64,000 nt of DNA from Strigamia acuminata (lineage: Eukaryota): NCBI GenBank assembly GCA_949358305.1, contig OX442314.1, forward strand, positions 16,368,001-16,432,000. Reading direction: 5' to 3'. Position numbers and translations under genes: made by a program. The stretch's first letter is position 1; each line of letters starts with the position of its first letter. The notes under the pieces are model-generated. The model searched no databases. It saw nothing but the letters and a program-made list of their open reading frames with translations, and was not told the DNA's origin. Shown piece after piece: positions 20,165-49,253 of this stretch.

Positions 20165-23100
20165 CTAATTAGATTTTGAACAAAGACGCAATAATTTTGT
20201 AATTGTAACATCAATTACACTGTAAAATGACATAATAGATACACCCATAGTGAGACCAAGTGCTGATCCAATGTCAGACAAAAAAGCCTCCAACGTGTAA
20301 GACCATTTTTCAATAAACTGTTGAATGAGGTTATGCTTGAATACAAATACGAAAGAATTGAATCCTGTTTTGTAGGGCTGAAAGTAAATTTGAATATTGA
20401 AAACAGTCTCTTCGCATTTTTTGAAACAATTGCAATGCTTCATAAAGTTGGGATCCATTTTCGAGGTAATAAGTGAATACATTTCATAAACTTTTAAAAG
20501 ATCATACGAATAGCTGCACGTTGGTAGAGAAATGTTGATCATAAACGGCAATCTAATAAATAAATAATCAATTACGATAACTAATCAAATGACCATCTTG
20601 TCAACTTACTTGCAACTCAGATGCTTTAGCCACATGGATTCAATACATCGATCCAAACACAGATCGTAGACATTTGAACTCGTACATGGGTGTTTTGGAT
20701 GATTTAATCGTTGAATCTTTAACAAATCATCAAAATTATTGGAAACTAAATCAAGAAAAATCACTGGGTGCATATACTTTTGTGACATCATATATAATTA
20801 AAGTACGAGAAAATAACGGAATTTCGTAATGCGAAGAAACTTGTAGATATTGATTCGCATTAACTGAGAAAAGCTAAACAAGCAACAATAACAATTTTAT
20901 TTAGAAATAAAATGTTCATATTTACCTGGAAATTGTCTTTACATTCATTTAAAAGTCCGCTAGTAAATGTAGTAAACATATTTGTTCCACTATAAATGTG
21001 CGATTCTGCAAATTACCATATTTAAAGCCTACAGTTGAGTACGGTATACAACATGCAATAGATATTTACCTATTTGTACTTCTGTACACAGACCTAAATG
21101 TGTCTTGATAGACTTCAATGTTGCATTTGGAGAATTTCCATGCGTTCTATACTGAATAAATAGGTTTAAGAAATTATATTATTTACATTATAAAAATGTC
21201 AGTGCTGCATGTAATAAGGTATTGCTCGTGTTAATATCCCTTTCTCCTACGCAAGATCAATAAAAACGACGCGTTTGTAAAATTTTCAACTCAAGGGATA
21301 TTGCCACTACAAACACCAAATAAAATGGTTTGTTAATTCTTACCTTAAAAGGATCTACTTTTTTCGGAATTCTCCACATCTTATCAAACTTATACTTGGT
21401 AATGTTGTCAGGCCATTTTAAGTAGTCTTCAAATTTTACGTCACATGCTTGTTTACCAATTTTTTCGGCAACCTTATTGCGGATTGGAACCAAGTCTTTG
21501 GAGCATAAAATTAGACGGGGATAAAAGACGGTTTTGTTTTCAGTCATTGTAATAATATTGGCAACAGGATACGATTTATAACGTTTCACCAGTGTGTAAA
21601 TGTGATACGATGATACAGTAATGCATATTATAGTAACCATAACCGACAGTATATTTGAAATGGAAAGTGTATATTTTTTTATACTATTACTCTGGCTTTG
21701 AAATTTCTCTTCTAAAACGAAAAGAGTTTTGACTTTGATGTACAAAAACTTAAACTTTCTATATCTCGTTCCGTCGTGATTACTCGTGAATATCAACGCA
21801 AACAGTTGAAACAACGACAACGCGCAAAGATTTAAAAATAAAACGAGATTTCCACCAATTGAACATAATAAATCAATCACGTAAAATGTATATCGCTGTG
21901 TAATGTAGACAGCACTGCTTTCAGTCAGTCGGAGATCAATGGATGTATTTCGTTCTGTGATTTGATGTAGGCTTGGTTTATACTGGAATACAAGCCGTTC
22001 ACAACTTTTCAGACAATTACATTCGTCCTGCGGATTTAACCCAAAAAATGTGTTTACGGCACGTTCATACATTTGTCCATTTGCCTCAGCTGCCTGGCAG
22101 AGAGGCATGTGCAATTCCTTCGGAAAAAACGGATAACTAGAACGAACAAATAGGGGAAAAATATTATTTAAGAATTTTTCCTTAACTCTATAACAATTAA
22201 GGTGGGCACCATATTTTTCAATTGTAACCAGAAGCGTGGTAAACGAGAATTTACTGACTTTTTCTTTACCAAAAAATAACCTGAATTTTACAAATCTTCA
22301 AATATCTCCAGTCACTTTTTTCCCACTTGAGCCGGAAATGCCTTTCTGGCTTTACACGGCCGGCCACGTGTTCGTTTCTCACTTACGGAGAGGTTTTGGC
22401 CTCAGCTGGAAATGTTCTACCACACCTAGAACACATTGAAATAATATGTGATGGATTCATGATGCATAATAAATTCAAAGATCTATCATTTTTAAAATTC
22501 GAAATCTTTTCATGCAACTGTTGCTCAAACTTTATTATTGTATCAACACATTGTTTGCCCAGGAATATGCAGAGGCGGGTTTAGTAACTGTCAAAATTTC
22601 CTCAGCAAATATCATAAACTGCAACTTTAACTTTGAAACTCAAATGAACTTTGATTTTTTTGTGTTATTCCTACTTGCAATTTTTCAAACAAGAAGATGG
22701 CACTAAAACATTATAACTAAATACAGTAGGTAAAGTAATTTTTTTGGGGAGGGGAATTGGGAATTGGATGGGAATTTGGTGTTTAAAAAATAATTATGAT
22801 GTGGGAAAACCAGCGTGTGTAAAATTCAGATTTCTTTTGAGTGTAAAATCAGAAAAAAGGAAGAGATAAATAGAAAGCACCCAAATGCATGCAGGGGCAG
22901 TATTTTGTGGGGCAGAATTTTAGAGGGGCTGAACACTCAAACGGCATTTATTTATTTATTTTTAAGTTCTTAAAAGATGCCCCCTTCAATTTGGCAGCCC
23001 TGAATCACGTTGCAAAACTCAGCTTTACCGGTAGGCATACAAAAATGATCCCCTGCTTTCGAATCCAAAGTCAAAATTTAACACGAAGTCCTGGAAGGTA

Positions 23101-25390
23101 AAGCATACTTTGACAACAGCAGAATTAATGACATAAAAGCAGAGAAATTCACCACTTATGACAATTGGTAACAGGGTCATCCACCTTAGTCTTAAAAGCT
23201 TAATTCATCATTGACTCCTACCTACAGTTGTGTTCTTGCTTCAGTTTTTCGGTTAAGCATCTATTAGCACACAATCCGTATTGATGATCATCGACACACC
23301 GCTCCCTAGAATTGTTGAGCGTTTTGTACTACAAATGAATTACGATATTAACGGCTTCTTAACGTTAACTGAGCAATGATCGTATATACCTCTGTTATTT
23401 GAATTGGTACACTAACGAGCGAACCGACAGGAAGTGTCCATGTGTTTTTGTTGTTCCATAATTGTCTTGCACCCTTAAAGGTCCCCTAATTGAGAGTTTG
23501 TAGAAAGTTTTCTATCTATTTCTACTTTTCTCTTTCAGAATGTTCAAATAAGTTAGTGTGATTACGAGCTACCTACTAAAGAAATCGAGATAACGATTGG
23601 CTCAATTTCAAACGAAAATAGGTTTCGGCAACATCTGACTAGCCATTAATTAAATGGGCGGCATTCGAACAGCGTTAATTTCACAGGTGGACAATTAACG
23701 GGGTGACATCAATCAGAGCAACAGTATCCAGCTGGCTAACCAGCTTATCAGCAGCGCCCTGTCCGATTTTTTTTTGCGTTCCGTTTTGTTCATCGTTGTT
23801 TTGAATGCTCGATCGTGCTTTAGCCAGGCCTGCAGCTTACATAATCCGAGTTCTTTCAACCTCAACCTCCACCCATTCAATTGTCGTCCCTTATAATTAG
23901 CACCTGTACATTCTACCACTTTTACATAGTTCCGTTCGTTTTCTAAAATCTGTTAAACCTGTAGATTTCGTGGAAAGCAGAGCCGTCTTAACACTCTTCA
24001 GCGCCCTGGGTTTAAAAAAATCAGGCGCTCCTTGCCCCTTGTCGTAATTAAATAAAAAATCATTTGTGTAGTGTAGTGTAGTGCACTCGTATTTTTGGGG
24101 CATTCTGGCGCCCTACTTCCACCCTCCTCCAAAAGAAGTACCGGTAAGCATTTTTGTGAAAAATAAATTCAAACCAAAAGAATGTTTGAACCTAAAATGC
24201 ATTTTTGGACCTAAAGATGCATCTTTAGAAAAAAAATGCCACCCGGGGTTTTACACACTATCAACAATGTGTAGGAACAGGCCTACAAGTTCAGCTTATA
24301 TTTGAACAATCATGAAGAATCTTTGTAGGAGGTGCCTGGCAGCCTTCTCTGCCTGGCGTTCCTCTCTGCCCAGCACCCCTGGGCTGCAGCCCAGTTAGCC
24401 CAATGGTGAAGGTGGGCCTGGTGGGAAGGCCGTCATATGAGAAATAATAATATTAAAAAAAAAACTTTAAACGTAATTAAATGTTTCTACTTCCAAATAA
24501 AACTAATACTGTGCAGTAAAAAAAATATGAAATAGTGAAGAAATTATGTAAAATGTAATAACATTAAGACACTTGCCATAATTGAGCGAGTTAACGCTAA
24601 TATACCCGTAGCATAAACATCAAGTTTTAATCGGAATGAATTTTTTATGTTCGCAATCTCATCTATAAAAAAAAAATGTCAAAGTAATTTACATATTACA
24701 CACACTTTCTAAGAAGTAAAATTCACCAAGACGAAATGCAGAGCATATACCCATGGGATGATCAACTTTTTTCGTTGGTATAATATTCATGTGTTGTTTG
24801 TTTCTCTAAAAAAATCATGATTATTATATCTGGAGCTTAACAGATTCATTGAACTGATTAAAGTCAAATTAACTTACTAATACCAACTGAAAACTGGTAT
24901 TCACATTTGAAGCAGAAGTAAAATCAGAATAGTTCCAAAGAATTCTGAGATCATGCTCTCCCTTTTCGATCATTGTTTTCAAAAGATTCAAATACTCATC
25001 CGCGTACATATCCACTTGCTCTAAGCCATTAATCATCTCTGGTGTTAATTGATTACAAATAGTCAATTCAGGCTTAAATTCATTCAAGATTGTCGAGCTT
25101 TCAGAAAAGGCTACATCAACAGCAACCGGCCATGACAGAAAATAAGCAATACGCTGATACGAAAGCAAAAAGCAGCATCCAGCGCTCGCAAAAAATAACA
25201 AAAACCAAAAAAACTTCAAAATGCTTGGTGCGTTATTTTGCGCTATAAGGTCTAGTCCAGGGATAAGATTTTTTTTCGTTTCACTTAACTTGGCATCTTC
25301 GAACAATTCTCGAACTATCCCCCGAATAGCCATATTTCGTCTTCGTTTCAGTTTCTCCCAGGGATTATACATTTCCATTTTGGTCAACAT
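20165..25390 (-). CDS. DEG/ENaC (pickpocket-like) gene encoding two tandem channel subunits in one reading frame
   Basis: Unit 1: TM1 FFWFLLFFASAGCCFLLSYQRIAYFLSWP, MGICSAF, CANRC, CNCLKSC, TM2 LLCSIGGNLVLFL. Unit 2: TM1 ..YHIYTLVKRYKSYP, YPRLILCS, LGLCTEV, CLDRC, CNCFKKC, TM2 FLSDIGSALGLTMGVS. The exons I traced join in frame through GT-AG introns. Confidence 0.85.
23978..24420. mobile_element. Non-autonomous hAT-like element (443 bp) in a DEG/ENaC intron
   Basis: CAG...CTG ends with imperfect TIRs (cagagccgtcttaac / ggtgaaggtgggcctg) and an 8-bp TSD GTGGAAAG / GTGGGAAG with one mismatch. Confidence 0.65.
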
Positions 25391-26255: not shown

Positions 26256-26354
26256 GTTATCTTAACCAATGGGAAACTAGTAATGGGTATATATACTTGC
26301 AATTCCCTACTCTCTTCTCTTCACTTCTTGCAAGTGCTAGGTTTTGTTTGCATC

Positions 26355-30779: not shown

Positions 30780-30962
30780 AAAGTGTTATTTATTTATTTA
30801 TTTATTTTGTAAACAAAACTGTTACATATTTTTATTATTATTATATCATTATCTTATCATGTAATTTATTTTGTAAATGAAATTATTATTATTATTATTA
30901 TTATTATTTTTATAAAATAAAACCATTATTATATATATTATCGTGTCATTCTTTCACAAACC

Positions 30963-31349: not shown

Positions 31350-31401
31350 ACAAGTGCATATGCAATGATCGAAATATATCTTTATTATTTGTGTATACAA
31401 A

Positions 31402-32496: not shown

Positions 32497-32544
32497 ATGT
32501 TTTTCTAACTTTGTTCTATGCTCCTAGTTATACTGTTTATTTCT

Positions 32545-33429: not shown

Positions 33430-33757
33430 TTTGTTTACTAATTAGTTTACCTACTAATGCTCCAATAATTGGGGCGAGTAGTTGCGGTAAAAATCCACCA
33501 GTTTGAATGACCAAGTTCCGTCTTTGTTTGAATGAAGATGTAGGAGTGGCCAATTTTCTTAACAACCTTCTCTTTCGATAAAGTGATTGTTTCTGATTTG
33601 CTCCTAACTTAATTGTACCTTTTATAATGTTTAAACAAATTTCACAGATGGTTTTACAGAAATCATCGTTAGAATGTTTGAGAAAATCCTTGATTTGTCT
33701 CTTATTTAAATCGGGAATGGCCCGGAGCACATTGGCGTGACGTCTTACTCGTTTCAT
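33422..33757 (-). CDS. Small basic Polinton virion/core protein with an amphipathic C-terminal peptide
   Basis: Arg/Lys-rich; ICEICLNIIKG; QTGG followed by FLPQLLAPIIGALVGKLIS. Confidence 0.8.
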   Translation of the reverse strand: MKRVRRHANVLRAIPDLNKRQIKDFLKHSNDDFCKTICEICLNIIKGTIKLGANQKQSLYRKRRLLRKLATPTSSFKQRRNLVIQTGGFLPQLLAPIIGALVGKLISKQNG

Positions 33758-33766
33758 TGGTGGAAT

Positions 33767-34366
33767 CTATATGTAAACTATAGTATATTCATCCGGAAAT
33801 ATATTAGTCTTCACTCTTTGATCTTGGGGTGTATCCGGTTTCAAATCAATTAATAAATACCCAAAACTTTGCGCTGTTGCATCGTTAAATGCTGATATGA
33901 AAAATTTACCTCGCTGTGGGAACATTTGACTCCCTACTTTTGCGATTTGATTCATATCCCTTGGATTTCGAAAAAGGATTAAATAGTGACTATTTAAAGA
34001 TAAAGTTCGTTGATATTTGCTTTGATGAAATATGTTTTGGCATAAATAAAATACACTAGTGCTCGTATGGTGCGAATATTTAGTCCACAATAACCCAATC
34101 TCTTGATTTAAATTTTCCATTTGATCGTCAATGATGAAAAGCTTTCTCGTTGATGAATCCAAAGTCTTTAAATTGGGTAATCCTTCGTGGAACTGCACAT
34201 TGGGAAATTCGATATACCACTGTTGCCATATTGAATAGTACCAGCAAATATCTTGTGGGGGTGGATCAATCATTTTACTCGCATTTCGGATAATTTTCTT
34301 ACATATCTCCGTTTTGCCCGTACCCGAACTTCCAGAAATAATAGCAGTAAATGGATGATGAAACAT
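33767..34366 (-). CDS. A32/FtsK-like genome packaging ATPase
   Basis: Walker A GSSGTGKT, Walker B LFIIDDQ, SHH, LSLNSHYLILFRNPRD, FGYLLIDL. Confidence 0.95.
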   Translation of the reverse strand: MFHHPFTAIISGSSGTGKTEICKKIIRNASKMIDPPPQDICWYYSIWQQWYIEFPNVQFHEGLPNLKTLDSSTRKLFIIDDQMENLNQEIGLLWTKYSHHTSTSVFYLCQNIFHQSKYQRTLSLNSHYLILFRNPRDMNQIAKVGSQMFPQRGKFFISAFNDATAQSFGYLLIDLKPDTPQDQRVKTNIFPDEYTIVYI

Positions 34367-34419
34367 TGTTCATATAAGAGGTGATGTCACCTCAATGATG
34401 CAATCAGAAGTGAGCAGGC

Positions 34420-35550
34420 ATGGATCCGGAACAGAGTTTCTATGTGAGTCTTCCATCAAATAGCAGCTTAGATTATTACCCGAATAATACATTGACGGAA
34501 TTTCATACGCAATTACCATCATATATTAATTTAGATGAAAATTGGGAAGTGGGTCTGGTTGGATTCCTTTATCCAAGAAGCTGGAGTACTGCTCTATTGC
34601 CCCGAGGTGCCGATTTTCGAATACTGAAGAATGAAGTCAATGCAATCAAATTTCCACCATTCAAATTTGTGGATGCATCCCTACCGCAGGATAAGCTAAT
34701 ATCCGAGTTTCTTAACTTTTTAAATAATAATTTAACATCTCCAACCAAGAAAGATGAGAAAGTTAAAGATCTTGACAAAGCATTGCAAAAATTAGGAATT
34801 AAATTTCACTGGAATTCCACTCGTTTAAGATTTGAAATAATAATTATGCCTAAGTTTCAAGTCATGATCCCGCAGAGGCTGGCATATGTGTTAGGTTTTG
34901 TGAAAGATGAAGATGATGATTTTTACGCTGATGAATCCAAGACGGCTCGTGATTCTCCACGTCTCACACCAAATCTTATCAATGATAAAAATTGGAATTT
35001 ATCAATTGAAAAGGAGACTGATGGTAAACAGAAACAAAGCTTGAAACCTGGAAATTATTCGGGACCTGATCAATTAGTAGATGCTTTAAATCTTAAAGCA
35101 CTCGTAGTTATTGATAAAGCACCATTTAGTTTTAATATATCATCAAAGAAAATTGAGATTAACTTGCCAATTAACACCAAGTTGGTTCTTGATAAAGCCT
35201 TGGCATCAACTCTCGGTTTTAATGATTTGCGTGTAATTACAAAAACAACAGAAGCTTTTCATAAAATGGATGAACAAGTTGGACTATATCATATGTACTT
35301 GTATTGCAATCTAATACAACCAAACATTGTTGGGGATACTTTAGCGCCACTGTTAAGAATAATACAGATTCAAGGAAAAGAGCGAGGACAATACATCTCC
35401 CAAACTTTTGAAAATCCACATTATAAACCGCTGGCAAAATTGCAATTTGAATCCATACAAGTGCTTATAAGGGGTGACACCGGAGAAAAAGTACCATTCG
35501 AGTTTGGACGTGTCGTTGCAACGTTACACTTCAGGAAGAGATTGGATTGA
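34420..35550 (+). CDS. Minor capsid (penton-like, PX) protein
   Basis: FYVSLPSNSS..YPNNTLTEF..WEVGL N-terminus and MYLYCNLIQPNIVGDTLAPLLR..PHYKPL..LHFRKR C-terminus, typical of Polinton minor capsid proteins. Confidence 0.88.
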   Translation: MDPEQSFYVSLPSNSSLDYYPNNTLTEFHTQLPSYINLDENWEVGLVGFLYPRSWSTALLPRGADFRILKNEVNAIKFPPFKFVDASLPQDKLISEFLNFLNNNLTSPTKKDEKVKDLDKALQKLGIKFHWNSTRLRFEIIIMPKFQVMIPQRLAYVLGFVKDEDDDFYADESKTARDSPRLTPNLINDKNWNLSIEKETDGKQKQSLKPGNYSGPDQLVDALNLKALVVIDKAPFSFNISSKKIEINLPINTKLVLDKALASTLGFNDLRVITKTTEAFHKMDEQVGLYHMYLYCNLIQPNIVGDTLAPLLRIIQIQGKERGQYISQTFENPHYKPLAKLQFESIQVLIRGDTGEKVPFEFGRVVATLHFRKRLD

Positions 35551-35554
35551 CAAG

Positions 35555-36037
35555 ATGAGATTTCACTATGAACTAAACCCTCAAATCTGCATGGATAGAT
35601 ATTGCTCAAATCATGCGCAAATAGGTGGAGCAGATCTTCCTATATTTGTAGGATCTCGCTATCAACAAGGACATGGTTTGGGTTCACTTATAAGTGACGC
35701 ATTTCGAATTGTAAAGCCTTTTGTGAGAAGTGGAGCGTTGGATGCAGCAACGTATGGTTTGAAGAGAGGATTAGACGTAATTTCCGATATGCGTGTAAAC
35801 AAGAGAAAATTTGGAAATGCATTTAAAGATCAGGTTGTTCGAACCAAATCGGATTTTTTAAAAAAGATTGGTGTACAGAAAGGAGGCAAACAAAAGCGGA
35901 TGGATGGTAAACAAAAGAAAAGACGTGTAACCAAACAAAAGAATCAGTCTAAGAGACGAACTCGACCAAAGAAGAACGTGCGTAGGAAGTCCTGCAAAAG
36001 GAAAACTTCACTTCTTGGACCTGACATATTTGATTAG
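35555..36037 (+). CDS. Basic core/virion protein (PZ-like) with putative protease sites
   Basis: QIGG, F.GSRYQQGHGLGSL, QKGG, very Lys/Arg-rich tail ending DIFD; lies between the penton and major capsid genes. Confidence 0.8.
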   Translation: MRFHYELNPQICMDRYCSNHAQIGGADLPIFVGSRYQQGHGLGSLISDAFRIVKPFVRSGALDAATYGLKRGLDVISDMRVNKRKFGNAFKDQVVRTKSDFLKKIGVQKGGKQKRMDGKQKKRRVTKQKNQSKRRTRPKKNVRRKSCKRKTSLLGPDIFD

Positions 36038-36039
36038 CC

Positions 36040-37377
36040 ATGCCGCAATTTCCCCATGAATCATCTGCCGAAGGCGCGACTCCAGAACTAGACATTTTTG
36101 GATTACCACTCACACAAATAACAGTGGAAGATAATTATTGGAGTGAATACCATCCAATTACAGCCGTAACTGCAGGACAGCCATTAGATTTTTCAATCAA
36201 GGGTACTGCTGATACGTACATTGACTTGAGTCAAACATACTTGTTACTAAATGTAACTGTAACCGATGGTGCTGGGGCTGTAATTACAAAAACAGCTAAG
36301 GTTTCTCCTACAAATTTATTCCTACATTCATTGTTCAGTCAAATAGATGTTAGACTAAATGATAAGCTAGTGTCAGCTTCCGATTCAAATTATTGTTATA
36401 GAAGTTATCTCGAAACAATTCTCAGTTTTTCAAATGATGCCAAAAAGAGTTATAAAACAGTGGAGATGTATTATGAGGATACAGGAGGATCATTTGATGA
36501 TTTAGATCCAACAGTAGCAGATTTTAACGAGGAGTTTGGAATTTATAAACGATATCATCGACTCATGCAGGATGGTGATTGTGGAAAATTACAGATGTTT
36601 GGAAGACTTCACTGCGATATCTTTTCTCAACCACATTATCTCATAAATAATGTTGACTTGCGAATTACACTTACTAGACAAAATGATGCATTTAGTTTAA
36701 TTTCAAAAGAGGCAGGGGCGGCCTATAAAACAGTTATAAATGATGCAACTTTATTTGTAAAAAAGATAGTTCCTAGCGCTAGTGTACTCTTAGCTCATCA
36801 TCAAGCATTAGAGCAACGTAATGCGAAATATCCCATTAGAAGGGTAGAAGTTAAGACATTTACAATTGCTACAGGATCGCAAACTGCTATGATTGATAAT
36901 GCATTTCTCGGTCAATATCCATCCCGATTGATTATTGGTCTTGTGAAAAACACTGCCTACTGCGGATCATATGCCAGTAATCCGTATAATTTTGAAAACC
37001 AAGGAATAAATTTTCTTCAAGTATTTTTGGATGGAAAAGGAGTACCAATGAGTCCATATAAGCCAGATTTTGCAAAAGGACAAGCAGCTCGTGAATTTAT
37101 TACCTTATACCAAACTATGAATAGAGCAGATAAAGATTTAGGATTAGGCATTTCGTATACTGATTATTGTTTAGGCGGAAATGTTTTATTTGGATTTGAT
37201 TTAACGCAAGATGCATCCGCCGGTCAACCACATTTGAATTTAGTAAAACAAGGAAATGTTAGGATTGAAATGAGATTTAATAAAGCCTTAACTGCAACCA
37301 TAACCGTATTAGTACTGGCGGAATATCAATCCATACTGGAGATTGATAGAGCGAGGAATATCATTACTGAATTTTAA
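36040..37377 (+). CDS. Major capsid protein (double jelly-roll, PY)
   Basis: 445 aa; ELDIF..P.TQ, YIDLSQTYL, NLFLHSLFSQIDV, GRLHCDIFSQ, G...NPYNF, LFGFDLT, GNVRIEMRF. Confidence 0.93.
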   Translation: MPQFPHESSAEGATPELDIFGLPLTQITVEDNYWSEYHPITAVTAGQPLDFSIKGTADTYIDLSQTYLLLNVTVTDGAGAVITKTAKVSPTNLFLHSLFSQIDVRLNDKLVSASDSNYCYRSYLETILSFSNDAKKSYKTVEMYYEDTGGSFDDLDPTVADFNEEFGIYKRYHRLMQDGDCGKLQMFGRLHCDIFSQPHYLINNVDLRITLTRQNDAFSLISKEAGAAYKTVINDATLFVKKIVPSASVLLAHHQALEQRNAKYPIRRVEVKTFTIATGSQTAMIDNAFLGQYPSRLIIGLVKNTAYCGSYASNPYNFENQGINFLQVFLDGKGVPMSPYKPDFAKGQAAREFITLYQTMNRADKDLGLGISYTDYCLGGNVLFGFDLTQDASAGQPHLNLVKQGNVRIEMRFNKALTATITVLVLAEYQSILEIDRARNIITEF

Positions 37378-37385
37378 CTCAAGCT

Positions 37386-37910
37386 ATGAACACGCTCCAA
37401 ATAACGGAGATTTTATCTAAGAATTCAGTGACGAGGCAAATTTTTAAAGGTGTATATCCAATTGATTTGCTATCCTCATCGCAACAAACAAACAAAACAT
37501 GCGCGTTTGTTGTAAATACTCATCCCCATACAAAACCAGGCGAACATTGGGTAGCATTGTTTCGAGATGAGAAAGTACCCGGTGCGATTGAATATTTTGA
37601 TTCGTTCGGTAAACCACCAGCGAAAGAAATTACTGCTTTTATTCAAAATATTGGATGTAAACTAACCAACAGGATTACTCAAACCTATCAATCACCGTGT
37701 AGTCTCGCATGTGGATATTATTGCATTTATTTTATTTATAATAGGTGTAAAGGAAAAAGCTTTGATTATATAAAAAATCAATTTAATCCAAGAAATCCAT
37801 ATTACAATGATAAAAAAGTTACAAAATTTGTTAAACATATTTTTAATTTTAAGATGTCAACATTGTATGATAAAAATTGTATCGTACAAATAAGTAAAAC
37901 AAAGAAATAA
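37386..37910 (+). CDS. Adenain/Ulp1-like cysteine maturation protease
   Basis: Catalytic H-D-C set with the oxyanion Gln: GEHWVA, EYFDSFG, YQSPCSLACGYYC. Confidence 0.95.
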   Translation: MNTLQITEILSKNSVTRQIFKGVYPIDLLSSSQQTNKTCAFVVNTHPHTKPGEHWVALFRDEKVPGAIEYFDSFGKPPAKEITAFIQNIGCKLTNRITQTYQSPCSLACGYYCIYFIYNRCKGKSFDYIKNQFNPRNPYYNDKKVTKFVKHIFNFKMSTLYDKNCIVQISKTKK

Positions 37911-37939
37911 AGTAATTGTTACAAAATCTGGTGTTTCTA

Positions 37940-38266
37940 TCAACCTGGTGTATCTAACCCATAGATGGATTTATAAATCAACCACTCTTCATTCAGTCCT
38001 TTTTCAAAAGTAATTCTCATTAATGGACAATAGGCATACCAAGAATAATGTTCCAAAAGAGGTATGTCACCACGTTTCCACTCTTTTAATCGACCGAGAC
38101 AGTAGACGCACTCAACATGATCATTTTCACCCAAGTATTTGAATCCAGCACGGGCTAAGGTGGAAGGGTCGGCGATGTGTCTAGAAACAGGCCAGTTGCG
38201 AAAGGTTTGCTTCCGTTCCCGGATTCGCCGCATCATCTCCGTTCGCATTTTCATTTCCCGTTCCAT
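37940..38266 (-). CDS. Single BIR-domain (IAP-like) protein carried by the Polinton
   Basis: RKQTFRNWP..LARAGFKYLGENDHVECVYCLGRLKEWKRGDIPLLEHYSWYAYCP contains the C-x2-C..W..H-x6-C zinc-binding BIR pattern. Confidence 0.92.
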   Translation of the reverse strand: MEREMKMRTEMMRRIRERKQTFRNWPVSRHIADPSTLARAGFKYLGENDHVECVYCLGRLKEWKRGDIPLLEHYSWYAYCPLMRITFEKGLNEEWLIYKSIYGLDTPG

Positions 38267-38870
38267 GAAGGAGGGCTTCAAGATCGTCGAGATAAGAATG
38301 GTCTTGAGTTTCAATACACCACTCCTTAAAGCAAAGACACTCAGCTTGAGGACAGTGCATTAACTTGGAGGGAAGTAGGGATTCATGAAGGTGACATAAA
38401 GGTTTTGAATCAGGATCAAGATTAAAATGAAGGTCCTGATATTTTGGACATCCCAATGATTCCAGGTCGAGGTATGGAATGTCACATTTGATTAACCAAT
38501 TTTTTTCAATTTGGCCTCCTTTGAATGCAATAATTGGTCTGTTGGCTTCCTGAACACAATTTATATGTAAAGATGTGAGGATAAAAGGAATCCAGCTTTG
38601 AGGTAGATCATCAGGACCATCTTCAAACTTCATACCGTGGATATTACGTTTTAACCAAGCAGCAACTTTTTGCCATTTTGGTTCTAGTTTGTCAAATTGT
38701 CCAACACGAAAGTGATAACTTAAAGTAGAATCCTTGTATAGAAAACACACTCCGAGCTCCTTGAGTAGAAAGTCGGGACCAAACTGGAATCCCTCAAAGT
38801 CAATAATACAACCTACGTTTTTTAATTGTTCCGAATTCATTCTAAAACACGAATTAAAATAAATATTCAT
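38181..38870 (-). CDS. DEDD/DnaQ-like 3'-5' exonuclease-fold protein
   Basis: IIDFEGFQ..LLKELGV, LKRNIHGMKF, AFKGGQIEKNWL, DLESLGCP, CHLH..HCPQAEC. Alternative start at 38840. Confidence 0.7.
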   Translation of the reverse strand: MNIYFNSCFRMNSEQLKNVGCIIDFEGFQFGPDFLLKELGVCFLYKDSTLSYHFRVGQFDKLEPKWQKVAAWLKRNIHGMKFEDGPDDLPQSWIPFILTSLHINCVQEANRPIIAFKGGQIEKNWLIKCDIPYLDLESLGCPKYQDLHFNLDPDSKPLCHLHESLLPSKLMHCPQAECLCFKEWCIETQDHSYLDDLEALLHGTGNENANGDDAANPGTEANLSQLACF

Positions 38871-39559
38871 TTATAATAATATCATTAAATAAATGGAACT
38901 TACTTTGAATGATGTTTCTAAAAGTTAAGTTGATTCGCGGATGAAGTGCAGAAATTTGCTTTGGAAGACTGTGATACCAAAAACGGTTTGTAGGTTGGTG
39001 CATTAGCAGAATGCTACCGTGTTCCAACGCGAGAGAAATCGGCTTTGGTGGTAAGACTGAGTTGCGAATAGTATACTTTCGCTTAAGAGACACGTGACGA
39101 AGAACAAAGTTTCTGTTTTGTCCTAGAGACAGGCTCGCTATTGGTGCGTTTGGATGAAGTCCCACCTCATCGTCTCGATGTTCACCAATAGTCTGGTTGC
39201 CATTTGCATAACGATTAACGAGAACAAAGTTAAATTCATGTCCGGTAACAAACTGAACGGCATCTCGTAAATCACGCAAAAGAGGAGTCCAAGTTTTAAC
39301 CGGTAAAGTATTACCAGAAAATGAATATTTCAATCCATCATCACCAAATGCAACTTGTTGTCTCGGTATATTGATCCACTTGCCATAAATCTTGATTTGA
39401 CTCACAAGTCAGTCTACCTGTATAGTATGTGATTTCATTTTCCAGCTTTTGAAATGTAGAATCAGCTACTTCTTTGTTGAAAAGAAGCCCATACTGCAAG
39501 TGTAAATCCTGCTTGGGAATATCTTTCCAACAAACAGGCTCTATTGTCGTCTTCTCCAT
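38854..39559 (-). pseudogene. ALKBH2-like AlkB dioxygenase with a frameshift near 39401-39412
   Basis: 5' ORF gives LFNKEVADSTFQKLENEITYYTG. The 3' ORF, in another frame, gives QIKIYGKWINIPRQQVAFGD..FNFVLVNRY..GEHRDDE..WYHSLP..RINLTFR. Confidence 0.88.
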
Positions 39560-39626
39560 GTTTTTTCATCCAAAAGAAACATCAGCTCGGTATATATAGC
39601 AGTTAACCTATTCTGCTGTCCAATCG

Positions 39627-39940
39627 GAGACATGTCTAAACTTGCCCCCCCAAGCGGTTTCAACAAATTATAGCAGAGGACTCCTCCCCTTTGCACCGCT
39701 CACTTCCTGTTTTATCCCCCCTTCCAAACAGTGCCATTGCTGAGACATGTTGAAACTTGTCTAAAATGGTTTCAACGAATCATAGCAGAGGAGACATTTG
39801 CACCACTCACTTTCTGTTTTATCCTCCCTTCCAAACAGTGCAATTGATGAGACATGAAACTTGTCTAAAATGGTTTCAACGAATCATAGCAGAGGACAAC
39901 GTTGCACCGCTCGCTTCCTGTTTTATCCTCCATTTCCACT
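39627..39940. repeat. Three imperfect tandem copies of a ~107-115-bp unit upstream of the AlkB gene
   Basis: GAGACATG recurs at 39627, 39742 and 39849, each followed by ggtttcaac..atagcagagga..ttgcacc.ctc.ctt.ctgttttatcc. Confidence 0.9.
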
Positions 39941-40140
39941 AATATAACACAAACACCCTTATTACAACTTAACTTATTTGTTAAAGAAATTAATGAAAGA
40001 AAAAAGATGTATTCTTATTCAAACAAATTTTATTTATATAATTAACACAAAAAAAAAAAGAAATAAGTACAAAAAAAAAAATTTAAACTAAAGTATACAA
40101 TTTCTATTCTACCAATACAAATAACAAATTAACTATAAAT

Positions 40141-40797
40141 CTATTCATCATCATCAGTATCGACAGGTACACTGGTAGGTTTTGAATCGACATCCTCATC
40201 AGAAGAATCCACAAAATGCACACCAGGAATGGGTCTCTGATATGGTTTCTTCTTCATTTGCTTTCTCTCCTTTTTCTTTTTTAAAACAATTGGAGCTTGA
40301 GATGTGGTCGGAGTAACAAATGAACTTGCAGTTGTTTCCTCGGGAATAGCTGGAAATTGAAGGTTGCTCTCTTGCAACTTTGACAGAGCTTCATCGATGC
40401 CCGAAAATATGGATGATCGCTGCTTCTTGAGTTGACGCCATTGTTCATACGAAAGCAGAATAAACTTCTCTGGCGCAAATGAATGACATATCATCAAAGA
40501 TACATCATCAGTTTTCGACTTGGAAATAGTGACTAAAACACCACCTACACACTCAATGGTTGATGATTTCTTGGTTTTTAAATTCGCAATTTCACTCGTT
40601 ATCTGCTTCCAATGTTCCACAAAATCATAAAATGTCTTAACGTTCATGCACATACCATCACGAGAGGGATACAGCTTTCCGTTCGGGTATGTCAGAAATC
40701 GTCTTAGGTGGATGTAGACTCCAGCTAGAAATGGATTGACTTGACAATAGATCTCCCCACCAAGAGAGTAGATCCCGCTGCTTGAAGTAGTAGTCAT
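40141..40797 (-). CDS. PC4-like ssDNA-binding protein (probably two PC4-like units) with basic NLS and acidic tail
   Basis: YSLGGEIYCQV..GVYIHLRRF..LYPSRDGMCM; second unit ending FILLSYEQWRQLK; KKKKERKQMKKKP; DTDDDE tail. TATAAA at 40845-40850 favours ATG 40797. Confidence 0.7.
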   Translation of the reverse strand: MTTTSSSGIYSLGGEIYCQVNPFLAGVYIHLRRFLTYPNGKLYPSRDGMCMNVKTFYDFVEHWKQITSEIANLKTKKSSTIECVGGVLVTISKSKTDDVSLMICHSFAPEKFILLSYEQWRQLKKQRSSIFSGIDEALSKLQESNLQFPAIPEETTASSFVTPTTSQAPIVLKKKKERKQMKKKPYQRPIPGVHFVDSSDEDVDSKPTSVPVDTDDDE

Positions 40798-40922
40798 GGC
40801 TTGTTTGTGAAAGAAATGGTGAGTATCCCAAAATGCGAGTTGCATTTATACAGGATAACTCCTCCCCTTTGAACCGCTCACTTCCTGTTTTACCCTTCCT
40901 TTCCATCACTGACATTGATGAG

Positions 40923-41308
40923 TACCCAATAATATCTCTCCTTTGGTTAAAAGTAGCCTAAGGGTCCTTTGAAAATTTGGGAAAAACAACAACAAGGTGC
41001 TTAAGGAAAGAAAAACAAGGGGCCTTTGAAAATTTGGGAAAAACAACAACAAGGTACTTAAGTAAAGAAAAACAATAACAAATAATAGCCTAGGGTACAT
41101 TGATTGAATGATAAGACTGATTGATTGAAGCAATTAGTCACCCCCACTTAGCTCTCCCCTTATCTCCCCCTCTCCTTATCTCCCCCTCCCGTTATCTCCC
41201 CCTCCACTTATCTCCCCCTCCCCTTATCTCTCCCCCCACTTAACCCTCACCACCCCCACCCCCCCTCACCACCAACCACTGGCCCAGGATCCCCACAAAC
41301 CCACTACT
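40923..41308 (-). repeat. Right terminal inverted repeat of the Polinton
   Basis: Reverse complement of 25871-26255; ends ...CCCACTACT followed by the CAGCTT TSD. Confidence 0.97.
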
Positions 41309-42113: not shown

Positions 42114-43313
<1,200 letters not shown>

Positions 43314-44594
43314 ACACCTAAATCCTTACTATGTAATTGAAAATCGTTAAATTGGTTTATGCTAATGCTGAAACACTAGTCATGTACAAAGAAAATAAAA
43401 GTATGTTTACCGAACTGAAATTCTCTTTCAATGAAAACACGCAAATCCAGTGGACTATAAATTATTTACAGCACACATTATTCAAACTAAACCGCCTCTA
43501 AAAGCCTATAAAAGATGTTTATCTTAAAATTCAAACAGATGATTAACAATTTATAAACTGCCACATTACAGCAGACTATAAATAGACATTCATACTAAAA
43601 TAGCAGTTTCACATAGAATCATCTATTTATTTAGAAATCTTCTAGCTATAGATTAAAATGTACAAGTAAAATAAAATGTTGAAAGTAATTTAGATGTTTT
43701 TAGGCCGCTTGAAATTGAGTGCAATAAATTCCTACAAGGTCCGACGAATGTTTAGATACGAAGTCGCCACAAATTCATACAAATTCTCTTGTTTGATCGA
43801 CACTATGCCCTAGACATGGAAGTTTCACGTAAGAAATTTCCTAAGACTCAATTTCTGATTTGTTATGAAATCGAGTACTAGTAGTATTGGTTAAATCAAC
43901 CCAAAGTGCGATCTTTGCGTTACAACTTCGGATTGATGACATCATCATCGAAGATATAAATAACAACTTCAAACATTATCACCATATCCAATGCATATTC
44001 TACTTTCATCCGAGAAAAGATAACCATTTCCCAGTCTTCCATTGTCCACGTTTCATATGTTTTTGCCCAGGTTAATCTCGTTCTCTGCTGTCTTAATGTT
44101 ATAAAAAGTACAGACGAAATAAACTTCCCTTCAGTTAAGCTTTTTTAAGTTTATATACCAATGGCATCAATCTTGAGTTTCTTGACTCGGTCTTTCGTTA
44201 TCCTAACAACAGTATTAAAAGATAGACCGGGCAAATAATGATAGATAAACTTAAAACAGCTAAACAGAAGGGAAGTATATTTTGTCCTCGACTGTACAAT
44301 AAACAAAAAAACAAATCGAAAGTTGTACTTTTCCTGTATTTAATATTCAGAAATTAATTGTGACATTATTTATTGACCGGCTCATATTCTTTGAAGACTT
44401 CAAACATAATTACACCAAGCACGAAAGCTAACGATTAGAAATATTCTTTCAATCCATTACAATCTAAAAATCAAACTTAGTACATCGTGTAATAAATTAT
44501 TATCTAATAAAATATTCATTCACTCAAATAAAACAGTCGTGCCGTACATCAAGCGTCCATTTACCGCAACAGATTCGATCACAAACTATCAACC

Positions 44595-47591
44595 ATGGTC
44601 AAAGCAAGAAAAATTATCAAGCAACTCTTGCACAGCCACGAGAAAAATAATTGGACATCTACAACCGGTTTAAGACAGGTGTCTAATCCTAATTATCCAA
44701 TTTGGTTGCGTGGCGTTTGGTTGATGATTTTCATCACGAGTTTAGCTCTATGCTCGTATCAAACGTACAATAGAGTAATGCATTACCGATCGGGTCCAAT
44801 TGCAGTCGATGTTCGATTCGTTGAAATCACCAGATTTCCTTCATTCACGGTTTGTTCGCAAGATACTCAAGAAATGATAAACTACAAGCAAAAACATTTT
44901 CTCGACGACAACATATTTTCCACATTTACTTGCATGAATCAACTTTTGTATGTGATGGATCAAGTCCAGAATGTAAATGTAGATGAGTTGTGGAAACTAA
45001 CCAATACGGCTAACATCGTCTCATCGGCAGTATTGAAACGGGTAAGATACAATCGTTTTCTATTTTAAAAATTTTGCATTCGAGATTTCTCGTTTAAAAT
45101 TGCTGTGTGGTAAATCCAACAAAAGTTCGCCAAGTAAACCCAGCTCATACTATTTTTTTAGTTAAATAATATCACAACAGTTACTCCAAAGCAAGTAATT
45201 GCACCAATGGGAATATGTTCAGCATTTCATTTAGGTATGGTTAACTATCTTTTTTCAAATTAATAGTTACGGTACAATTAATTTTTAATACGTTGTAAAA
45301 CCCAGATGGTGAAATGAAACATCCTACTTCAACTCAATTTATTCTGAAATTGGCAAAACTACCAAACAGCTGTGAAACTTCAATAATTTCAGTAAGTAAC
45401 TTAAGTTAGTTTATAAAATTAAATTAAATTATGTTCTTTTTAGGGCAGTGCACATGAACCTGGAGAACATTCACCAGACATTCGCAATCTATTTGGATTT
45501 TCTCCATTTCAAATCATCTACATTACTCTAGTCTACAAACAGGTATATTTCCTACATTTAAATTATGACCATAAACTAAAATCGTCATTTTACTTTTATT
45601 TTCCAGTACATCTTTTTAAATTCTACAAAAAATCCCTGTGTGGATCATACGACCTACAACGAATGCCAGTTAAAATGCTTATTGAAAATGTACACCAAAC
45701 ATCAATTTCCATGCAGGTATTTATTTTAAAAAATCAAATAATTAAATCCAACACCACTAAGTTTTCTCTAGGTTCCCATTCATGCCAAGTAAATTAAATT
45801 TAGATTTATGCACCACAAAAAAAGACGTTACCAAAGAATTGTACGCCAAAGCAACAAACACCTTCATCAGCACAAATCCAACACAAGATTGCAACTGCCT
45901 TCGACGTTGCAACAGAATCGTTTTCGAATTCTCTCTAACCAATAACGACATGCATCAAAACGAAACAACATTCAACTTGATTCTTAGAAACAAACAACTT
46001 TTATCAGTAGAAGAGCGGCTTGCCTTCGATTTCATATCCCTACTCGGAGACTTTGGCGGCAATTTAGGCTTATATTTCGGATTATCCATTCTCTCTGCAG
46101 TTTACTACGTGCAACAATACATAGAATGCCTCGATGCCCGAGCTAAAGTCAACAGTCTGCGGAGAAAACATCCAAAAGCCTACCGTTTTCTCGCCCACAT
46201 TTTCAACAAAGAAATGAAGAAAAGAGAGAAAAATATCTTTTCCAAATACACATTTCAAAGACACCCTCATTGCCTCGTTTCACTTTTGCTATTGGTTGTC
46301 ACAATTTATTTACTAACGATCCGCGTATTATTCTACATTTCTGAACCAACCCAAGTAGTGATCAACGTTGTCGAAAACTCGACCATGAATTTCCCATCAC
46401 TGACACTCTGCGGTGAAAGCAGGAGCTATTCCAAACTCAGAAAAGCATATGCAAAAAAAGACGCAACAAAGCACTACTGCGAAGCCAACTTTTGGGATTT
46501 CTTTGACAAAAATCTAACCGCTCAAGAGATATGGGCCTTCACAGATATCACTGACGTAATTTCTAACAGAACCGAAGAATTTGCAAAGGTATATCACAGC
46601 CGTCTGCAACTTATTTTTTTTTACTAATAAAACACCCACCATTTCCACACAACAGGCGAATGTTGGTATTTTATCACTAAAAGCAGAGAAACAAACAGCG
46701 ACCAATACCCCAACAGGCCGCTGTTCACATTTCAAAATAGGTAAATAATTTCTAACAAAAAATAAATAAATAAATCGATCATCACATTAGGTGAACACAC
46801 GTTTGCTGGAACCGCTACACTGTTTGCCATTTTGTTGCAACAAAAACAGTGTCAACCAGAAGCCTTATCGTACATTACGGAAAACGATATGGAGCCAAAC
46901 ATTATTTACCGCACTCCTGTAATCGTCGGTGGAAATGCCGCTATCCTTCTTACAGCCAAAAAGGTATTACTTTACACACCCCAATAATCTAAAAAAAACC
47001 AAAGATATTTAAATATTTAGCCTAATAAGTCTAATTTCCTAGGTGACTTACCACAAAAGCTACAATAACCCATGCGTAAGTCCTAAAAGCGCTTTAAAAT
47101 GTGAAACTCGGTGCCTACAAAGAAAACTGAACGAGAAACTGCAATGCAGGTAAGCCTACCAAAATTAATTCTATATAAAAAAAATACAGAAGATAATTGT
47201 CTTCAGACTCCCATACATGAAAAACATTCGCTATCCAATGTGCACCTCTTCAAAATCAGCGCTATTAGCCCAACTTACATTTAAAGATGTTTTTCTAGAC
47301 AAAAAATCATGTAATTGTACTAAATCTTGCACCACCGTTATTTACGACACAAACTGGTATTTCGAACCCCATGATCATTGGTTAATGACAATGTACGTAA
47401 CGATTTTTATTCACAACACAGTCGAATATATCAACGAGCTACCTCATTACACACATGTCCAATTAATGTGCGATATTGGCTCCATCTTAAGTCTCACTCT
47501 GGGTTTATGCATTCCAGTTATATTTCTCACTTTGCAGAATATTACATTTTCCACTTGCAGTAAAATACTTGCAAAAAAACACTCGAAATAA
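44595..47591 (+). CDS. Second DEG/ENaC gene encoding two tandem channel subunits in one reading frame
   Basis: Unit 1: WTSTTGL, TM1 VWLMIFITSLALCSYQ, FPSFTVCS, MGICSAF, CNCLRRC, LLGDFGGNLGLYFGLS. Unit 2: TM1, FPSLTLCG, TGRCSHF, CETRC, CNCTKSC, LMCDIGSILSLTLGLC. Confidence 0.87.
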
Positions 47592-47693
47592 AAACGAAAC
47601 GTCTGTAACTGTTTTATGTAACAATAATAATAAAAAAGTGTATTTCACAAATTAATTTACAAACTTCTAAGTTAAAAGAAACCACAAAAATAG

Positions 47694-48479
47694 TTACATT
47701 TTAAAACGCTTGGAAATGAAAGAAGAATCGTCTCCACTAGATCTTTTTCCCAAATTGTCAAATGTGTGATTTCCTGCATCGACGTGAAATTCCTCGCCCC
47801 AATCCGGAGACGTTATTGTTGACATACGACTCGAATTTCCTGCACCGTTATAAAATCCACGGCACCGAGCCGGTTTTCCTGCATCATTGTACAATTCCTG
47901 GCACCAAAACGAAAGCTCTATTATTGGCACATGAGTCGGATCACCATATCGAGTAAATAGTTCGAGTAAATAATCCGCTCTGTATATCCCAGGTGGTCTA
48001 GCTTGCGCAAATTCCTTAACGGCTGAACGTACGTCCCATCCCTGCTTCTCTACCAAGTAAGCAACAATCAAGAATCCAGTTCTATTAAATCCGTGGGTGT
48101 CATGAATTCCTATAAGCTGCGACGTGTGTGCCAATATAAAGTTACTACAGATATTAATAAATTCACGCGTTTCATTTAAATCCGGGCATTCGTCGTTCCT
48201 TCGACATGAAAGTCTCAAGTATAATATATCCCGAGATTCAACCTCTGCTTTGTCATAAAATCCGTCGGTGTTCGTCAAATTAATCCACAGACCCAAATTT
48301 GCTTCATAACTGAGCATGACCATAAATCTGTGTTGTACTATCATTGAAGGTGTGAATATATAGTCAGGAGGGACTTGATTTGATTTCAAAGGCGTTTTAA
48401 ACGCAAAAAAACGTTCGCCTACTAAACGAGTTGCTGTGTTTGGACACTGCAACCACCTTTGAGGAATATCAGTAGACAT
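47694..48479 (-). CDS. Intronless RNA 5'-triphosphatase domain (RNGTT N-terminus-like) with catalytic Cys replaced by Asp
   Basis: IPQRWLQCP, RFFAFKTPL, LGLWINLTNT..FYDK, IGIHDTHGFNRTGFLIVAYLVE, FAQARPPGIY. No guanylyltransferase domain follows. Confidence 0.88.
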   Translation of the reverse strand: MSTDIPQRWLQCPNTATRLVGERFFAFKTPLKSNQVPPDYIFTPSMIVQHRFMVMLSYEANLGLWINLTNTDGFYDKAEVESRDILYLRLSCRRNDECPDLNETREFINICSNFILAHTSQLIGIHDTHGFNRTGFLIVAYLVEKQGWDVRSAVKEFAQARPPGIYRADYLLELFTRYGDPTHVPIIELSFWCQELYNDAGKPARCRGFYNGAGNSSRMSTITSPDWGEEFHVDAGNHTFDNLGKRSSGDDSSFISKRFKM

Positions 48480-49253
48480 CTTACGACTTAAACACGACAC
48501 CAAATGAGTTAAATGCTCGTTTGTACTAAAATGCCACGTCTAACTTCTATATAACCTTCAATTCGTGCTGCAAAGTTGCTGATGTTGGAATTCTCGGATC
48601 CGGAACAATACGACAAGTGATTTTATTCAACGAAATACACAGGTTAAGTACTACAATAATCAGCCCTGATTGGCTGCTACAAAAAACGTTCGCTGGACGT
48701 ATTGGCGGCCGACATACACAATGTCCAACAGCTGATTCGTTGATAAGTTAATGATATTCATGTACGAAACGTCTCAAGGCAGCATAATTTGTTTTAAATT
48801 TGTTTTTATACGCCTAATTTACAATTTTATTATTTCGTCAGTGTAAAATGCCAAAATTCACAACATTTTTTTATATTTGTATTACTCTCTTTACGATGTT
48901 TAATATTAAATATTAAATATTTCAATTTCAATACTTCAATTTACGATAATTAGACAATTTTAATAATTATGTCGTATTTTATCTATTCCACCAACGTTCT
49001 GTACGAGACTTTACATTTGGATAGTCTTATTCGTCTAAAATAATTCGTCTATAATAATTTGCCACACAAAGTTTATTTCAACCATAATTATTTGAAATAT
49101 TAATTAAAAACCTATTACGTGTCGAATATATCATGATTTATTTAATATTAATCTAGTTTACAGCTCAGTAGTAAATTGTAATTGATTACTGATGTCTGAT
49201 AAAATTCGACTCGATGTATATGACATGCGAGTAAAATCGAATGCTTCGACCAA

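What the first reader, a model, noticed from the sequence alone, without database searches (positions are those of the whole stretch)
44595..47591. Second, divergent two-subunit DEG/ENaC concatemer gene
Seen: the same architecture as the 20165-25390 gene, with the TM2-to-TM1 junction inside one exon (ORF 45782-46627) and a matching exon layout, but very divergent sequence. The pre-TM1 HG position reads TG and the filter-like positions read GLS and GLC. Inference: two diverged intact paralogs make an artefact unlikely and point to a maintained subfamily.
Basis: partly seen in the sequence, partly recalled or inferred. Interest (0 to 1): 0.75.

Follow-up and report, generated by a model that had tools for sequence, protein, structure and literature searches.

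The report
Centipede double-subunit sodium channel gene family
This intact centipede gene encodes two DEG/ENaC ion-channel subunits joined head to tail in one reading frame, belongs to an old expanded family of such double genes, and likely pre-builds two of the three positions of a normally three-subunit sensory channel, leaving the third to a separate partner.

Summary
Confirmed and extended. 44595-47591 is a 10-exon, all GT-AG gene for a 793-aa protein with two complete DEG/ENaC units; the TM2-linker-TM1 junction lies inside one 817-bp exon. The paralog at 25390-20165 is also intact (808 aa). A Strigamia maritima protein is 76% identical across the junction exon. A profile search found 23 database proteins with the same junction in this clade (12 of 12 looked up are S. 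maritima gene models). First units form one clade (99/99), second units another (90/94): one old fusion, then expansion. Both halves keep all ten ectodomain cysteines and shared intron positions; unit 2 is under purifying selection. Second units replace the pore-gate glycine (9 of 10) that first units (24 of 24) and single subunits (8 of 8) keep. Closest solved relatives are the centipede antennal channels BRTNaC1 and PDPNaC1, both single-unit trimers. Likely a 2+1 trimer with fixed asymmetry; stoichiometry, transcript and stimulus are untested (no RNA run listed). Ten literature searches found no natural DEG/ENaC concatemer. Shrimp sequences with three fused units also turned up.

The parts
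44595..47591 (+). Gene B: two-unit DEG/ENaC gene, 10 exons, 793 aa
   Evidence: model; Pfam ASC; S. maritima T1J963 76% identical over exon 6
44595..45041 (+). Exon 1: N-terminus with TG at the HG position (44664-44669), TM1 of unit 1, start of ectodomain
45162..45234 (+). Exon 2 (unit 1 ectodomain; ends in a phase-1 intron shared by all four halves of genes A and B)
45306..45391 (+). Exon 3 (unit 1 ectodomain; missing from the S. maritima model)
45444..45542 (+). Exon 4 (unit 1 ectodomain)
45607..45716 (+). Exon 5 (unit 1 cysteine-rich thumb)
45772..46588 (+). Exon 6, the fusion exon: end of unit 1, TM2, linker, TM1 and start of unit 2 in one open frame
   Evidence: one 1880-bp contig spans it in both DNA runs
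46040..46114 (+). TM2 of unit 1 (aa 362-386): canonical pore face, filter GLS at 46079-46087
46115..46267 (+). Basic linker (aa 387-437), predicted cytoplasmic and helical; replaces the C-tail of unit 1 and the HG-bearing N-terminus of unit 2
   Evidence: 67% identical to S. maritima
46268..46336 (+). TM1 of unit 2 (aa 438-460)
46656..46740 (+). Exon 7 (counterpart of exon 2)
46791..46963 (+). Exon 8 (counterpart of exons 3+4; the intron between them is lost here, kept in gene A)
47043..47149 (+). Exon 9 (unit 2 thumb; counterpart of exon 5)
47207..47591 (+). Exon 10: end of unit 2, TM2 (47463-47537) with Ser at the gate-glycine position (47481-47483), filter GLC (47502-47510), stop
20165..25390 (-). 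Gene A: intact two-unit paralog, 11 exons, 808 aa; fusion exon 22136-21344
   Evidence: 0 differences in long contigs of both runs

Best explanation
The gene encodes two DEG/ENaC subunits fused head to tail in one reading frame, and its four-transmembrane product likely fills two neighbouring positions of a trimeric cation channel whose third position would be taken by a separate single-unit subunit (2+1). Shown: the frame, both complete units, the in-exon junction, one old origin by duplication and fusion of six-exon subunit genes, expansion to many paralogs, purifying selection, and a position-specific pore signature. Predicted: the two units pack against each other like neighbours in a trimer (pTM 0.74). 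Inferred: the fusion fixes the order and ratio of two different subunits, a canonical first unit and a second unit with Ser/Asn at the lower-gate glycine, so the pore is asymmetric and the free third slot lets many double genes combine with many single ones. By kinship to the antennal channels BRTNaC1 and PDPNaC1 the likely role is sensory (pH, heat or chemical cues), weakly Na+-selective; the stimulus is a guess.
For: Intact model. All eight thumb cysteines and the further ectodomain pair in each half of both genes. Junction kept in S. maritima at 76%; unit 2 is 74% identical and a neutral simulation gives P(no stop)=0.001; 4 of 15 coding differences in exons 9-10 between the window and variant contigs are non-synonymous against 73-79% expected, P 2e-5 to 3e-4, and 3 of 3 elsewhere are silent. 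Two clades by position. Linker basic (244 K+R, 77 D+E in 969 residues) and short (88-116 aa from the TM2 Asp to the Pro after the next TM1, 23 of 24 rows). AlphaFold2 of the S. maritima ortholog and of a full-length paralog: pLDDT 78.7 and 78.2, pTM 0.74 each; best structural matches BRTNaC1 and PDPNaC1, described as trimers. Single-unit relatives exist in S. maritima (T1JKA6, T1IGW0, T1JAY0, T1IV96, T1IQE5). Engineered ASIC concatemers with short linkers form working channels. Three-unit chains in shrimp fit a count of three.
Against: No transcript or protein evidence; all S. maritima relatives are automatic gene models and many are fragments. No partner subunit is identified. An engineered ASIC1a dimer gave currents when expressed alone, so a third gene is not needed in principle, and that paper argues for tetramers. 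Gene A's first unit has Val and Asn at two pore glycines, so some family members may not conduct. 17 of 23 linkers, this gene's included, hold a Met that could start unit 2 alone. BRTNaC1's D217/E218 pair is not kept in either half, so its gating mechanism does not carry over.
Confidence: 0.55

Rival explanations
1. Self-sufficient assembly: two double chains make one trimeric pore with one unit left outside, or three chains make two linked trimers.
For: An engineered ASIC1a dimer is functional alone in oocytes (PMC4529235, passages). Needs no partner gene.
Against: Leaves an unassembled ectodomain with exposed interfaces; would mix 2:1 and 1:2 pores and so lose the fixed order that the position-specific signature suggests. 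In one search smaller products were present and could have supplied monomers.
Confidence: 0.17
2. The halves act as separate subunits: the chain is cut in the cytoplasmic linker, or unit 2 is made from an internal start.
For: A Met 17-19 residues before TM1 of unit 2 is kept in this gene and in S. maritima; 17 of 23 linkers have a Met. Engineered concatemers shed monomers and dimers.
Against: 6 of 23 linkers, gene A's included, have no Met; the junction is inside one exon with no room for a promoter outside coding sequence; unit 2 has lost the normal pre-TM1 segment; no stop at the junction in any of the junction models.
Confidence: 0.1
3. Two double chains form a four-unit (2x2) pore, a stoichiometry new for the family.
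For: Two divides four and not three; other natural concatemer channels (two-pore K+, TPC, Nav/Cav; recalled) match repeat number to pore symmetry. PMC4529235 argues for ASIC1a tetramers at the cell surface. Larger residues at the gate of unit 2 would suit a wider pore.
Against: Every solved relative in the fold searches is a trimer or an assembly intermediate by its title or paper; the shrimp fusions have three units.
Confidence: 0.08
4. The double chain does not conduct: it is a regulatory, scaffold or ligand-binding subunit that silences or tunes single-unit channels.
For: Gate glycine replaced in 9 of 10 second units; gene A's first unit has Val/Asn at pore glycines; unit 2 lacks the HG segment.
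Against: TM2 helices are the best-kept segments between species (93% and 89%); first units keep the full pore signature in most rows; PDPNaC1 conducts without HG and with G378S.
Confidence: 0.08
5. Artefact or decaying read-through of two adjacent genes.
For: A variant contig with a net +4 indel in exon 10 is the only one laid there in both DNA runs; a broken third copy lies nearby.
Against: Open junction in two species and many paralogs; clades by position; purifying selection; one contig across the junction with 0 and 2 differences. The indel contig goes with doubled depth and a loose end at 46971, as a partial duplicate elsewhere would give.
Confidence: 0.02

Closest known systems
BRTNaC1, broad-range thermal receptor of Scolopendra (PDB 8YMR/8YMW/8YMX; PMC9974506)
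   Same: Best sequence hit in the PDB (E 3e-16) and best fold match (Foldseek E 3e-18; Z 21.3, rmsd 5.8, 325 aligned); short ectodomain, same cysteine pattern, Cys at the last filter position (GIC vs GLC).
   Different: 431-aa single unit with HG and gate glycine; only 24-26% identical to either half; its D217/E218 pair is not kept; not inside the clade of either half.
PDPNaC1, proton-dissociation channel of Scolopendra antenna (PDB 9JF7; PMC12714832)
   Same: Second family hit (E 5e-13; Z 19.8); lacks HG; its pore residues 372-384 map directly on both TM2 helices.
   Different: Homotrimer of 421-aa single units; its proton-block Ser376 is Asn in unit 1 and Ile in unit 2; Gly375 is Ser and Gly378 is Ser in unit 2.
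Heteromeric ENaC (alpha/beta/gamma) and ASIC2a/3 heteromers
   Same: Different subunits with different pore residues in a fixed ratio around one pore (ASIC2a/3 1:2, PMC10329638 title and passages; ENaC recalled and PDB titles).
   Different: There each subunit is a separate gene and chain; here two are covalently fixed in order.
Engineered ASIC/ENaC concatemers
   Same: Head-to-tail units with a cytoplasmic linker; functional as dimers, trimers and tetramers.
   Different: Laboratory constructs that keep full tails plus a linker; the natural junction is about 50 aa and has dropped the HG segment of unit 2.
Natural repeat-fused channels of other families (K2P, TPC, Nav/Cav, sperm tetra-KCNG); recalled, from no call
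   Same: Subunit gene duplicated and fused, repeats then specialised.
   Different: Their repeat number (2 or 4) divides the pore symmetry (4); two does not divide three.

Membership tests
DEG/ENaC (Pfam ASC PF00858) | ASC profile match above the curated cut-off | tested here: met
   Exon 1 41.9 bits, exon 6 69.5, exon 10 24.7, cut-off 23.6; ortholog 95.7 bits, 2 stretches
DEG/ENaC (Pfam ASC PF00858) | Cysteine-rich thumb and palm/beta-ball ectodomain between two TM helices, per unit | tested here: met
   Ten aligned ectodomain cysteines in each half; models match BRTNaC1 and ASIC1 chains
DEG/ENaC (Pfam ASC PF00858) | One unit and two TM helices per polypeptide | tested here: not met
   Two units, four predicted TM helices; this is the departure from the family
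DEG/ENaC (Pfam ASC PF00858) | TM2 pore signature (Asp, gate Gly, G-x-S filter) | tested here: inconclusive
   Met in unit 1 (D, G, G, GLS); unit 2 keeps D and the filter Gly but has Ser at two glycines and GLC
DEG/ENaC (Pfam ASC PF00858) | Pre-TM1 HG motif | tested here: not met
   TG in unit 1, segment shortened or absent in unit 2; PDPNaC1 also lacks it and conducts, so not disqualifying
DEG/ENaC (Pfam ASC PF00858) | Trimeric assembly | not testable with these tools
   Three full units exceed the 1000-residue limit of the complex tool; no job sent
DEG/ENaC (Pfam ASC PF00858) | Voltage-independent cation current | not testable with these tools
   Needs electrophysiology
BRTNaC1/PDPNaC1 orthologue | Groups with them on the tree and keeps their gating residues | tested here: not met
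   They lie outside both half-clades; D217/E218 and Ser376 not kept
Strigamia two-unit subfamily (defined here) | First unit in the first-unit clade, second unit in the second-unit clade, open TM2-TM1 junction | tested here: met

The most novel reading that the evidence does not exclude
Arthropods have repeatedly evolved natural DEG/ENaC concatemers: an old two-unit family in Strigamia that works as a pre-assembled, order-fixed two-thirds of a channel and forms a combinatorial sensory receptor code with single subunits (or breaks the trimer rule as a 2x2 pore), a younger separate set of fusions in the same centipede, and three-unit single-chain channels in shrimp that are to DEG/ENaC what Nav/Cav are to K+ channels.
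Probability: 0.6. Interest if true: 0.88.

Novelty: new variant of a known kind. Interest (0 to 1): 0.8.

Why it matters
DEG/ENaC channels are described as trimers of separate two-helix subunits. A maintained family of covalent dimers does not fit threefold symmetry, so it must take a partner, leave a unit out or change stoichiometry; each outcome says something on how these channels assemble, a question long studied with artificial concatemers. The family also gives a natural experiment in pore asymmetry (position-specific gate residues over many paralogs) and a candidate large sensory receptor family in a centipede lineage whose sequenced member lacks known photosensory genes and odorant receptors (passages). 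Domain-counting surveys would pass these proteins as ordinary members or discard them as mis-joined models.

Tried and rejected
No whole genome is held, so no genome-wide count and no S. maritima DNA for a true dN/dS. No RNA holder listed; the two runs laid are contigs of one study, nearly identical to the window at gene A, so probably not independent. In exon 10 no window-like contig was laid; contigs show presence, not absence. Word-index searches found only T1J963 and nothing for gene A's fusion exon. The 117-row quick tree needed 2 changes per group because the second unit of P0004 joined its first unit through P0101, a model that appears to join the start of one unit to the end of another; P0101 was left out, as were short units. 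Selection on the linker alone and on the exon-6 part of unit 1 is not shown by the stop-codon simulation (P 0.24 and 0.23). The TM2 counts used a pattern that required the glycine; they were redone by profile alignment, where 24 of 25 first units and 10 of 25 second units reach TM2. The 100-row alignment A2 was too gappy and was not folded. No complex prediction was sent: three full units do not fit, the partner is unknown, and a pass would reflect likeness to solved trimers. The atlas did not answer for the window exon; for the three-unit protein it gave only ASC clusters of 388-643 aa with a recognition score under its threshold. Earlier scan notes held nothing on this locus; two notes on Naegleria mini-channels concern separate neighbouring genes. 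A third unit next to gene B was looked for and not found: a trypsin-like gene lies upstream and a phosphatase-like ORF downstream.

Full report
Observation. Reading splice sites from the sequence gives ten exons, 44595-45041, 45162-45234, 45306-45391, 45444-45542, 45607-45716, 45772-46588, 46656-46740, 46791-46963, 47043-47149 and 47207-47591, all nine introns GT-AG and 50-120 bp, with an open 793-aa frame. Pfam ASC matches exon 1, exon 6 (two stretches) and exon 10 above the cut-off. The halves align over 368 aa at 22% identity. Exon 6 carries the end of unit 1, its TM2, a linker of about 50 aa, and TM1 plus the start of unit 2 without an intron. One 1880-bp contig crosses it in each of two DNA runs with 0 and 2 differences; these runs are probably not independent of the window. 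The paralog at 25390-20165 gives an open 808-aa frame in 11 exons, with a GC donor at its third intron that puts the intron in the same aligned column and phase as in this gene.

Origin. In an alignment of the four halves, introns fall at column 330 (phase 1), 493 (phase 0) and 533 (phase 2) in 4 of 4 halves, at 456-457 (phase 0) in 3 of 4, and at 301-303 (phase 0) in 3 of 4 with the fourth at 279 in a poorly aligned stretch. So each half descends from a six-exon subunit gene, and the last exon of one copy is fused to the first exon of the next. A Strigamia maritima model, T1J963 (660 aa, lacking the first 107 aa and exon 3), is 76% identical over exon 6; the window is therefore inferred to come from a related geophilomorph centipede. 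A phmmer search with it gave 228 hits, 150 listed. With a unit profile built from 49 single-length hits, 23 of the 150 carry the same TM2-to-TM1 junction and fall with genes A and B; 12 of these were looked up and all 12 are S. maritima models; 11 were not looked up. The library is clustered at 50%, so this is a lower bound, but all named ones are automatic models and many are partial.

Tree. With 50 rows (15 first units, 15 second units, 20 others) first units form one clade (99/99) and second units another (90/94). Holding this gene's two halves together is rejected (p-AU 0.00018). With TM2 cut off and a mixture model on 34 rows the split stands (12 of 12, SH-aLRT 90; 11 of 11, 89). An earlier 117-row tree had one exception, traced to a probably chimeric model that was then left out. 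Branches are long, and whether the two clades are sisters is not resolved. BRTNaC1, PDPNaC1 and single-unit S. maritima proteins lie outside both.

Selection. Against S. maritima: TM2 of unit 1 93%, linker 67% (34 of 51, no gap), unit 2 74%, TM2 of unit 2 89%. Neutral change to that divergence would put about 6 stops in unit 2 (no stop in 0.1% of 1000 runs); for the linker alone the test is not significant (24%). Among differences between the window and variant contigs, 4 of 15 in exons 9-10 change a residue against 73-79% expected (P 2e-5 to 3e-4, rough omega 0.09-0.14), and 3 of 3 in exons 1 and 6 are silent while intron 1 shows 9 differences. Against: the exon-10 variant contig carries a net +4 indel and is the only one laid there; doubled depth and a loose end at 46971 point to a partial second copy, but a broken allele is not excluded.

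Anatomy. Each half has eight thumb cysteines and one further pair; no N-glycan sequon lies in the linker. Linkers are basic and 88-116 aa from the TM2 Asp to the Pro after the next TM1 (23 of 24 rows), as expected of a cytoplasmic loop. Using PDPNaC1 numbering (PMC12714832, parts 1-3 of 9 read; gates at Asp372 and Gly375, selectivity at Gly378, no HG motif, G378S conducts), position 375 is Gly in 24 of 24 first units and 8 of 8 single subunits with TM2 but in 1 of 10 second units (Ser 7, Asn 2); 376 is Asn in 22 of 24 first units and 1 of 10 second units; 378 is Ser in 5 of 10 second units, this gene included. Related rows share ancestry, so these counts show a fixed early change, not many events.

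Structure. AlphaFold2 on the ortholog (39-row alignment) and on a full-length paralog T1JD34 (46 rows) gave pLDDT 78.7 and 78.2 and pTM 0.74; the paralog model shows four long hydrophobic helices, and the ortholog's linker is helical with low confidence at 294-302. Two freely placed halves would be expected to score near 0.5, so I infer a defined packing; I could not inspect coordinates. The window's own spliced protein was not folded. Best matches are BRTNaC1 and PDPNaC1, then ASIC1.

Mechanism. Shown: two complete, differently specialised units in one frame, kept in many paralogs. Established: close relatives are trimers, and engineered ASIC concatemers work (PMC4529235 and PMC10329638, passages). 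Inferred: the chain fills two adjacent slots and a single-unit subunit the third (0.55). Rivals: self-assembly with a spare unit or as linked trimers (0.17), separation of the halves (0.10), a 2x2 pore (0.08), a non-conducting regulator (0.08), artefact (0.02). A sensory role is inferred only from kinship to antennal channels (PMC9974506, part 1 of 5 and passages).

Beyond the locus. Four S. maritima models (T1IZL2, T1ITG7, T1IU28, T1IL99) hold junctions between near-identical units in a different clade, two with parts of three units: a younger, separate fusion. Two Halocaridina rubra models (1244 and 1289 aa) and a 1268-aa protein on three Logan contigs of 4447-4553 bases have three complete units that cluster by position (SH-aLRT 96, 98, 96); the contig lengths leave little room for introns, which suggests assembled transcripts (inference). 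These support a unit count of three and repeated origin of fusion.

Literature. Ten searches (listings and abstract starts seen) found no report of a natural DEG/ENaC concatemer. Term look-ups in the main text of PMC8438182, PMC5203786, PMC7067487, PMC9822975, PMC10148893, PMC11534843, PMC4244043 and PMC12804983 (passages only) showed none; the S. maritima genome paper has no ENaC term in its main text. Supplements and subscription papers were not seen and could mention double-domain models.

Verdict. A real, intact member of an apparently undescribed subfamily of two-unit DEG/ENaC proteins. New variant of a known kind; interest 0.8. The open points are the transcript, the stoichiometry and the stimulus.

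Noticed in passing
window 25871-41308: Polinton/Maverick-like element between the two channel genes: 397-bp inverted ends at 98% identity, 6-bp target duplication, long ORFs with Pfam hits to integrase+chromo, adenovirus-type protease and zinc fingers/endonuclease VII; polymerase, ATPase and capsid labels for other ORFs would be from recall.
   Followed up: partly
window about 41860-41314 and 25865-25635, minus strand: Degenerate copy of the last exons of gene A with stops and frameshifts, split by the element's insertion.
   Followed up: partly
window 46971-47630: Extra depth, a loose end and a variant contig with a net +4 indel in both DNA runs: probably a partial duplicate of exons 9-10 elsewhere in the genome.
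   Followed up: partly
proteins P0049, P0061, P0088 (P0152, P0153), P0096: Three-unit DEG/ENaC chains in the shrimp Halocaridina rubra and in unnamed Logan/ENA records; units cluster by position. Candidate natural single-chain trimers.
   Followed up: partly
proteins P0002, P0005, P0006, P0018: A second, younger set of fused units in S. maritima models, some with parts of three units.
   Followed up: partly
protein P0132: 727-aa two-unit protein on a 3782-base ENA contig, far from the centipede clade on the tree: possibly another independent fusion.
   Followed up: no
window 21344-22136, minus strand: Gene A's first unit has Ser, Val and Asn at positions where the family has Asp372, Gly378 and Gly382, the reverse of gene B, whose second unit is the more altered.
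   Followed up: partly
window 47694-48539, minus strand: Single open frame with a dual-specificity phosphatase match just below Pfam's score cut-off by domain coverage (E 2e-10), 100 bp from the stop of gene B; resembles the triphosphatase part of mRNA capping enzymes (recalled).
   Followed up: no
window 23950-24470: High-copy repeat inside intron 3 of gene A (summed contig depth up to several hundred times the flank).
   Followed up: no
window 653-1516, 3826-7727, 42796-43350, 61516-62403: Neighbouring exons of a phospholipase D-like gene, a Rel homology gene, a trypsin-like gene and a DDE_Tnp_4 transposase-like ORF.
   Followed up: no
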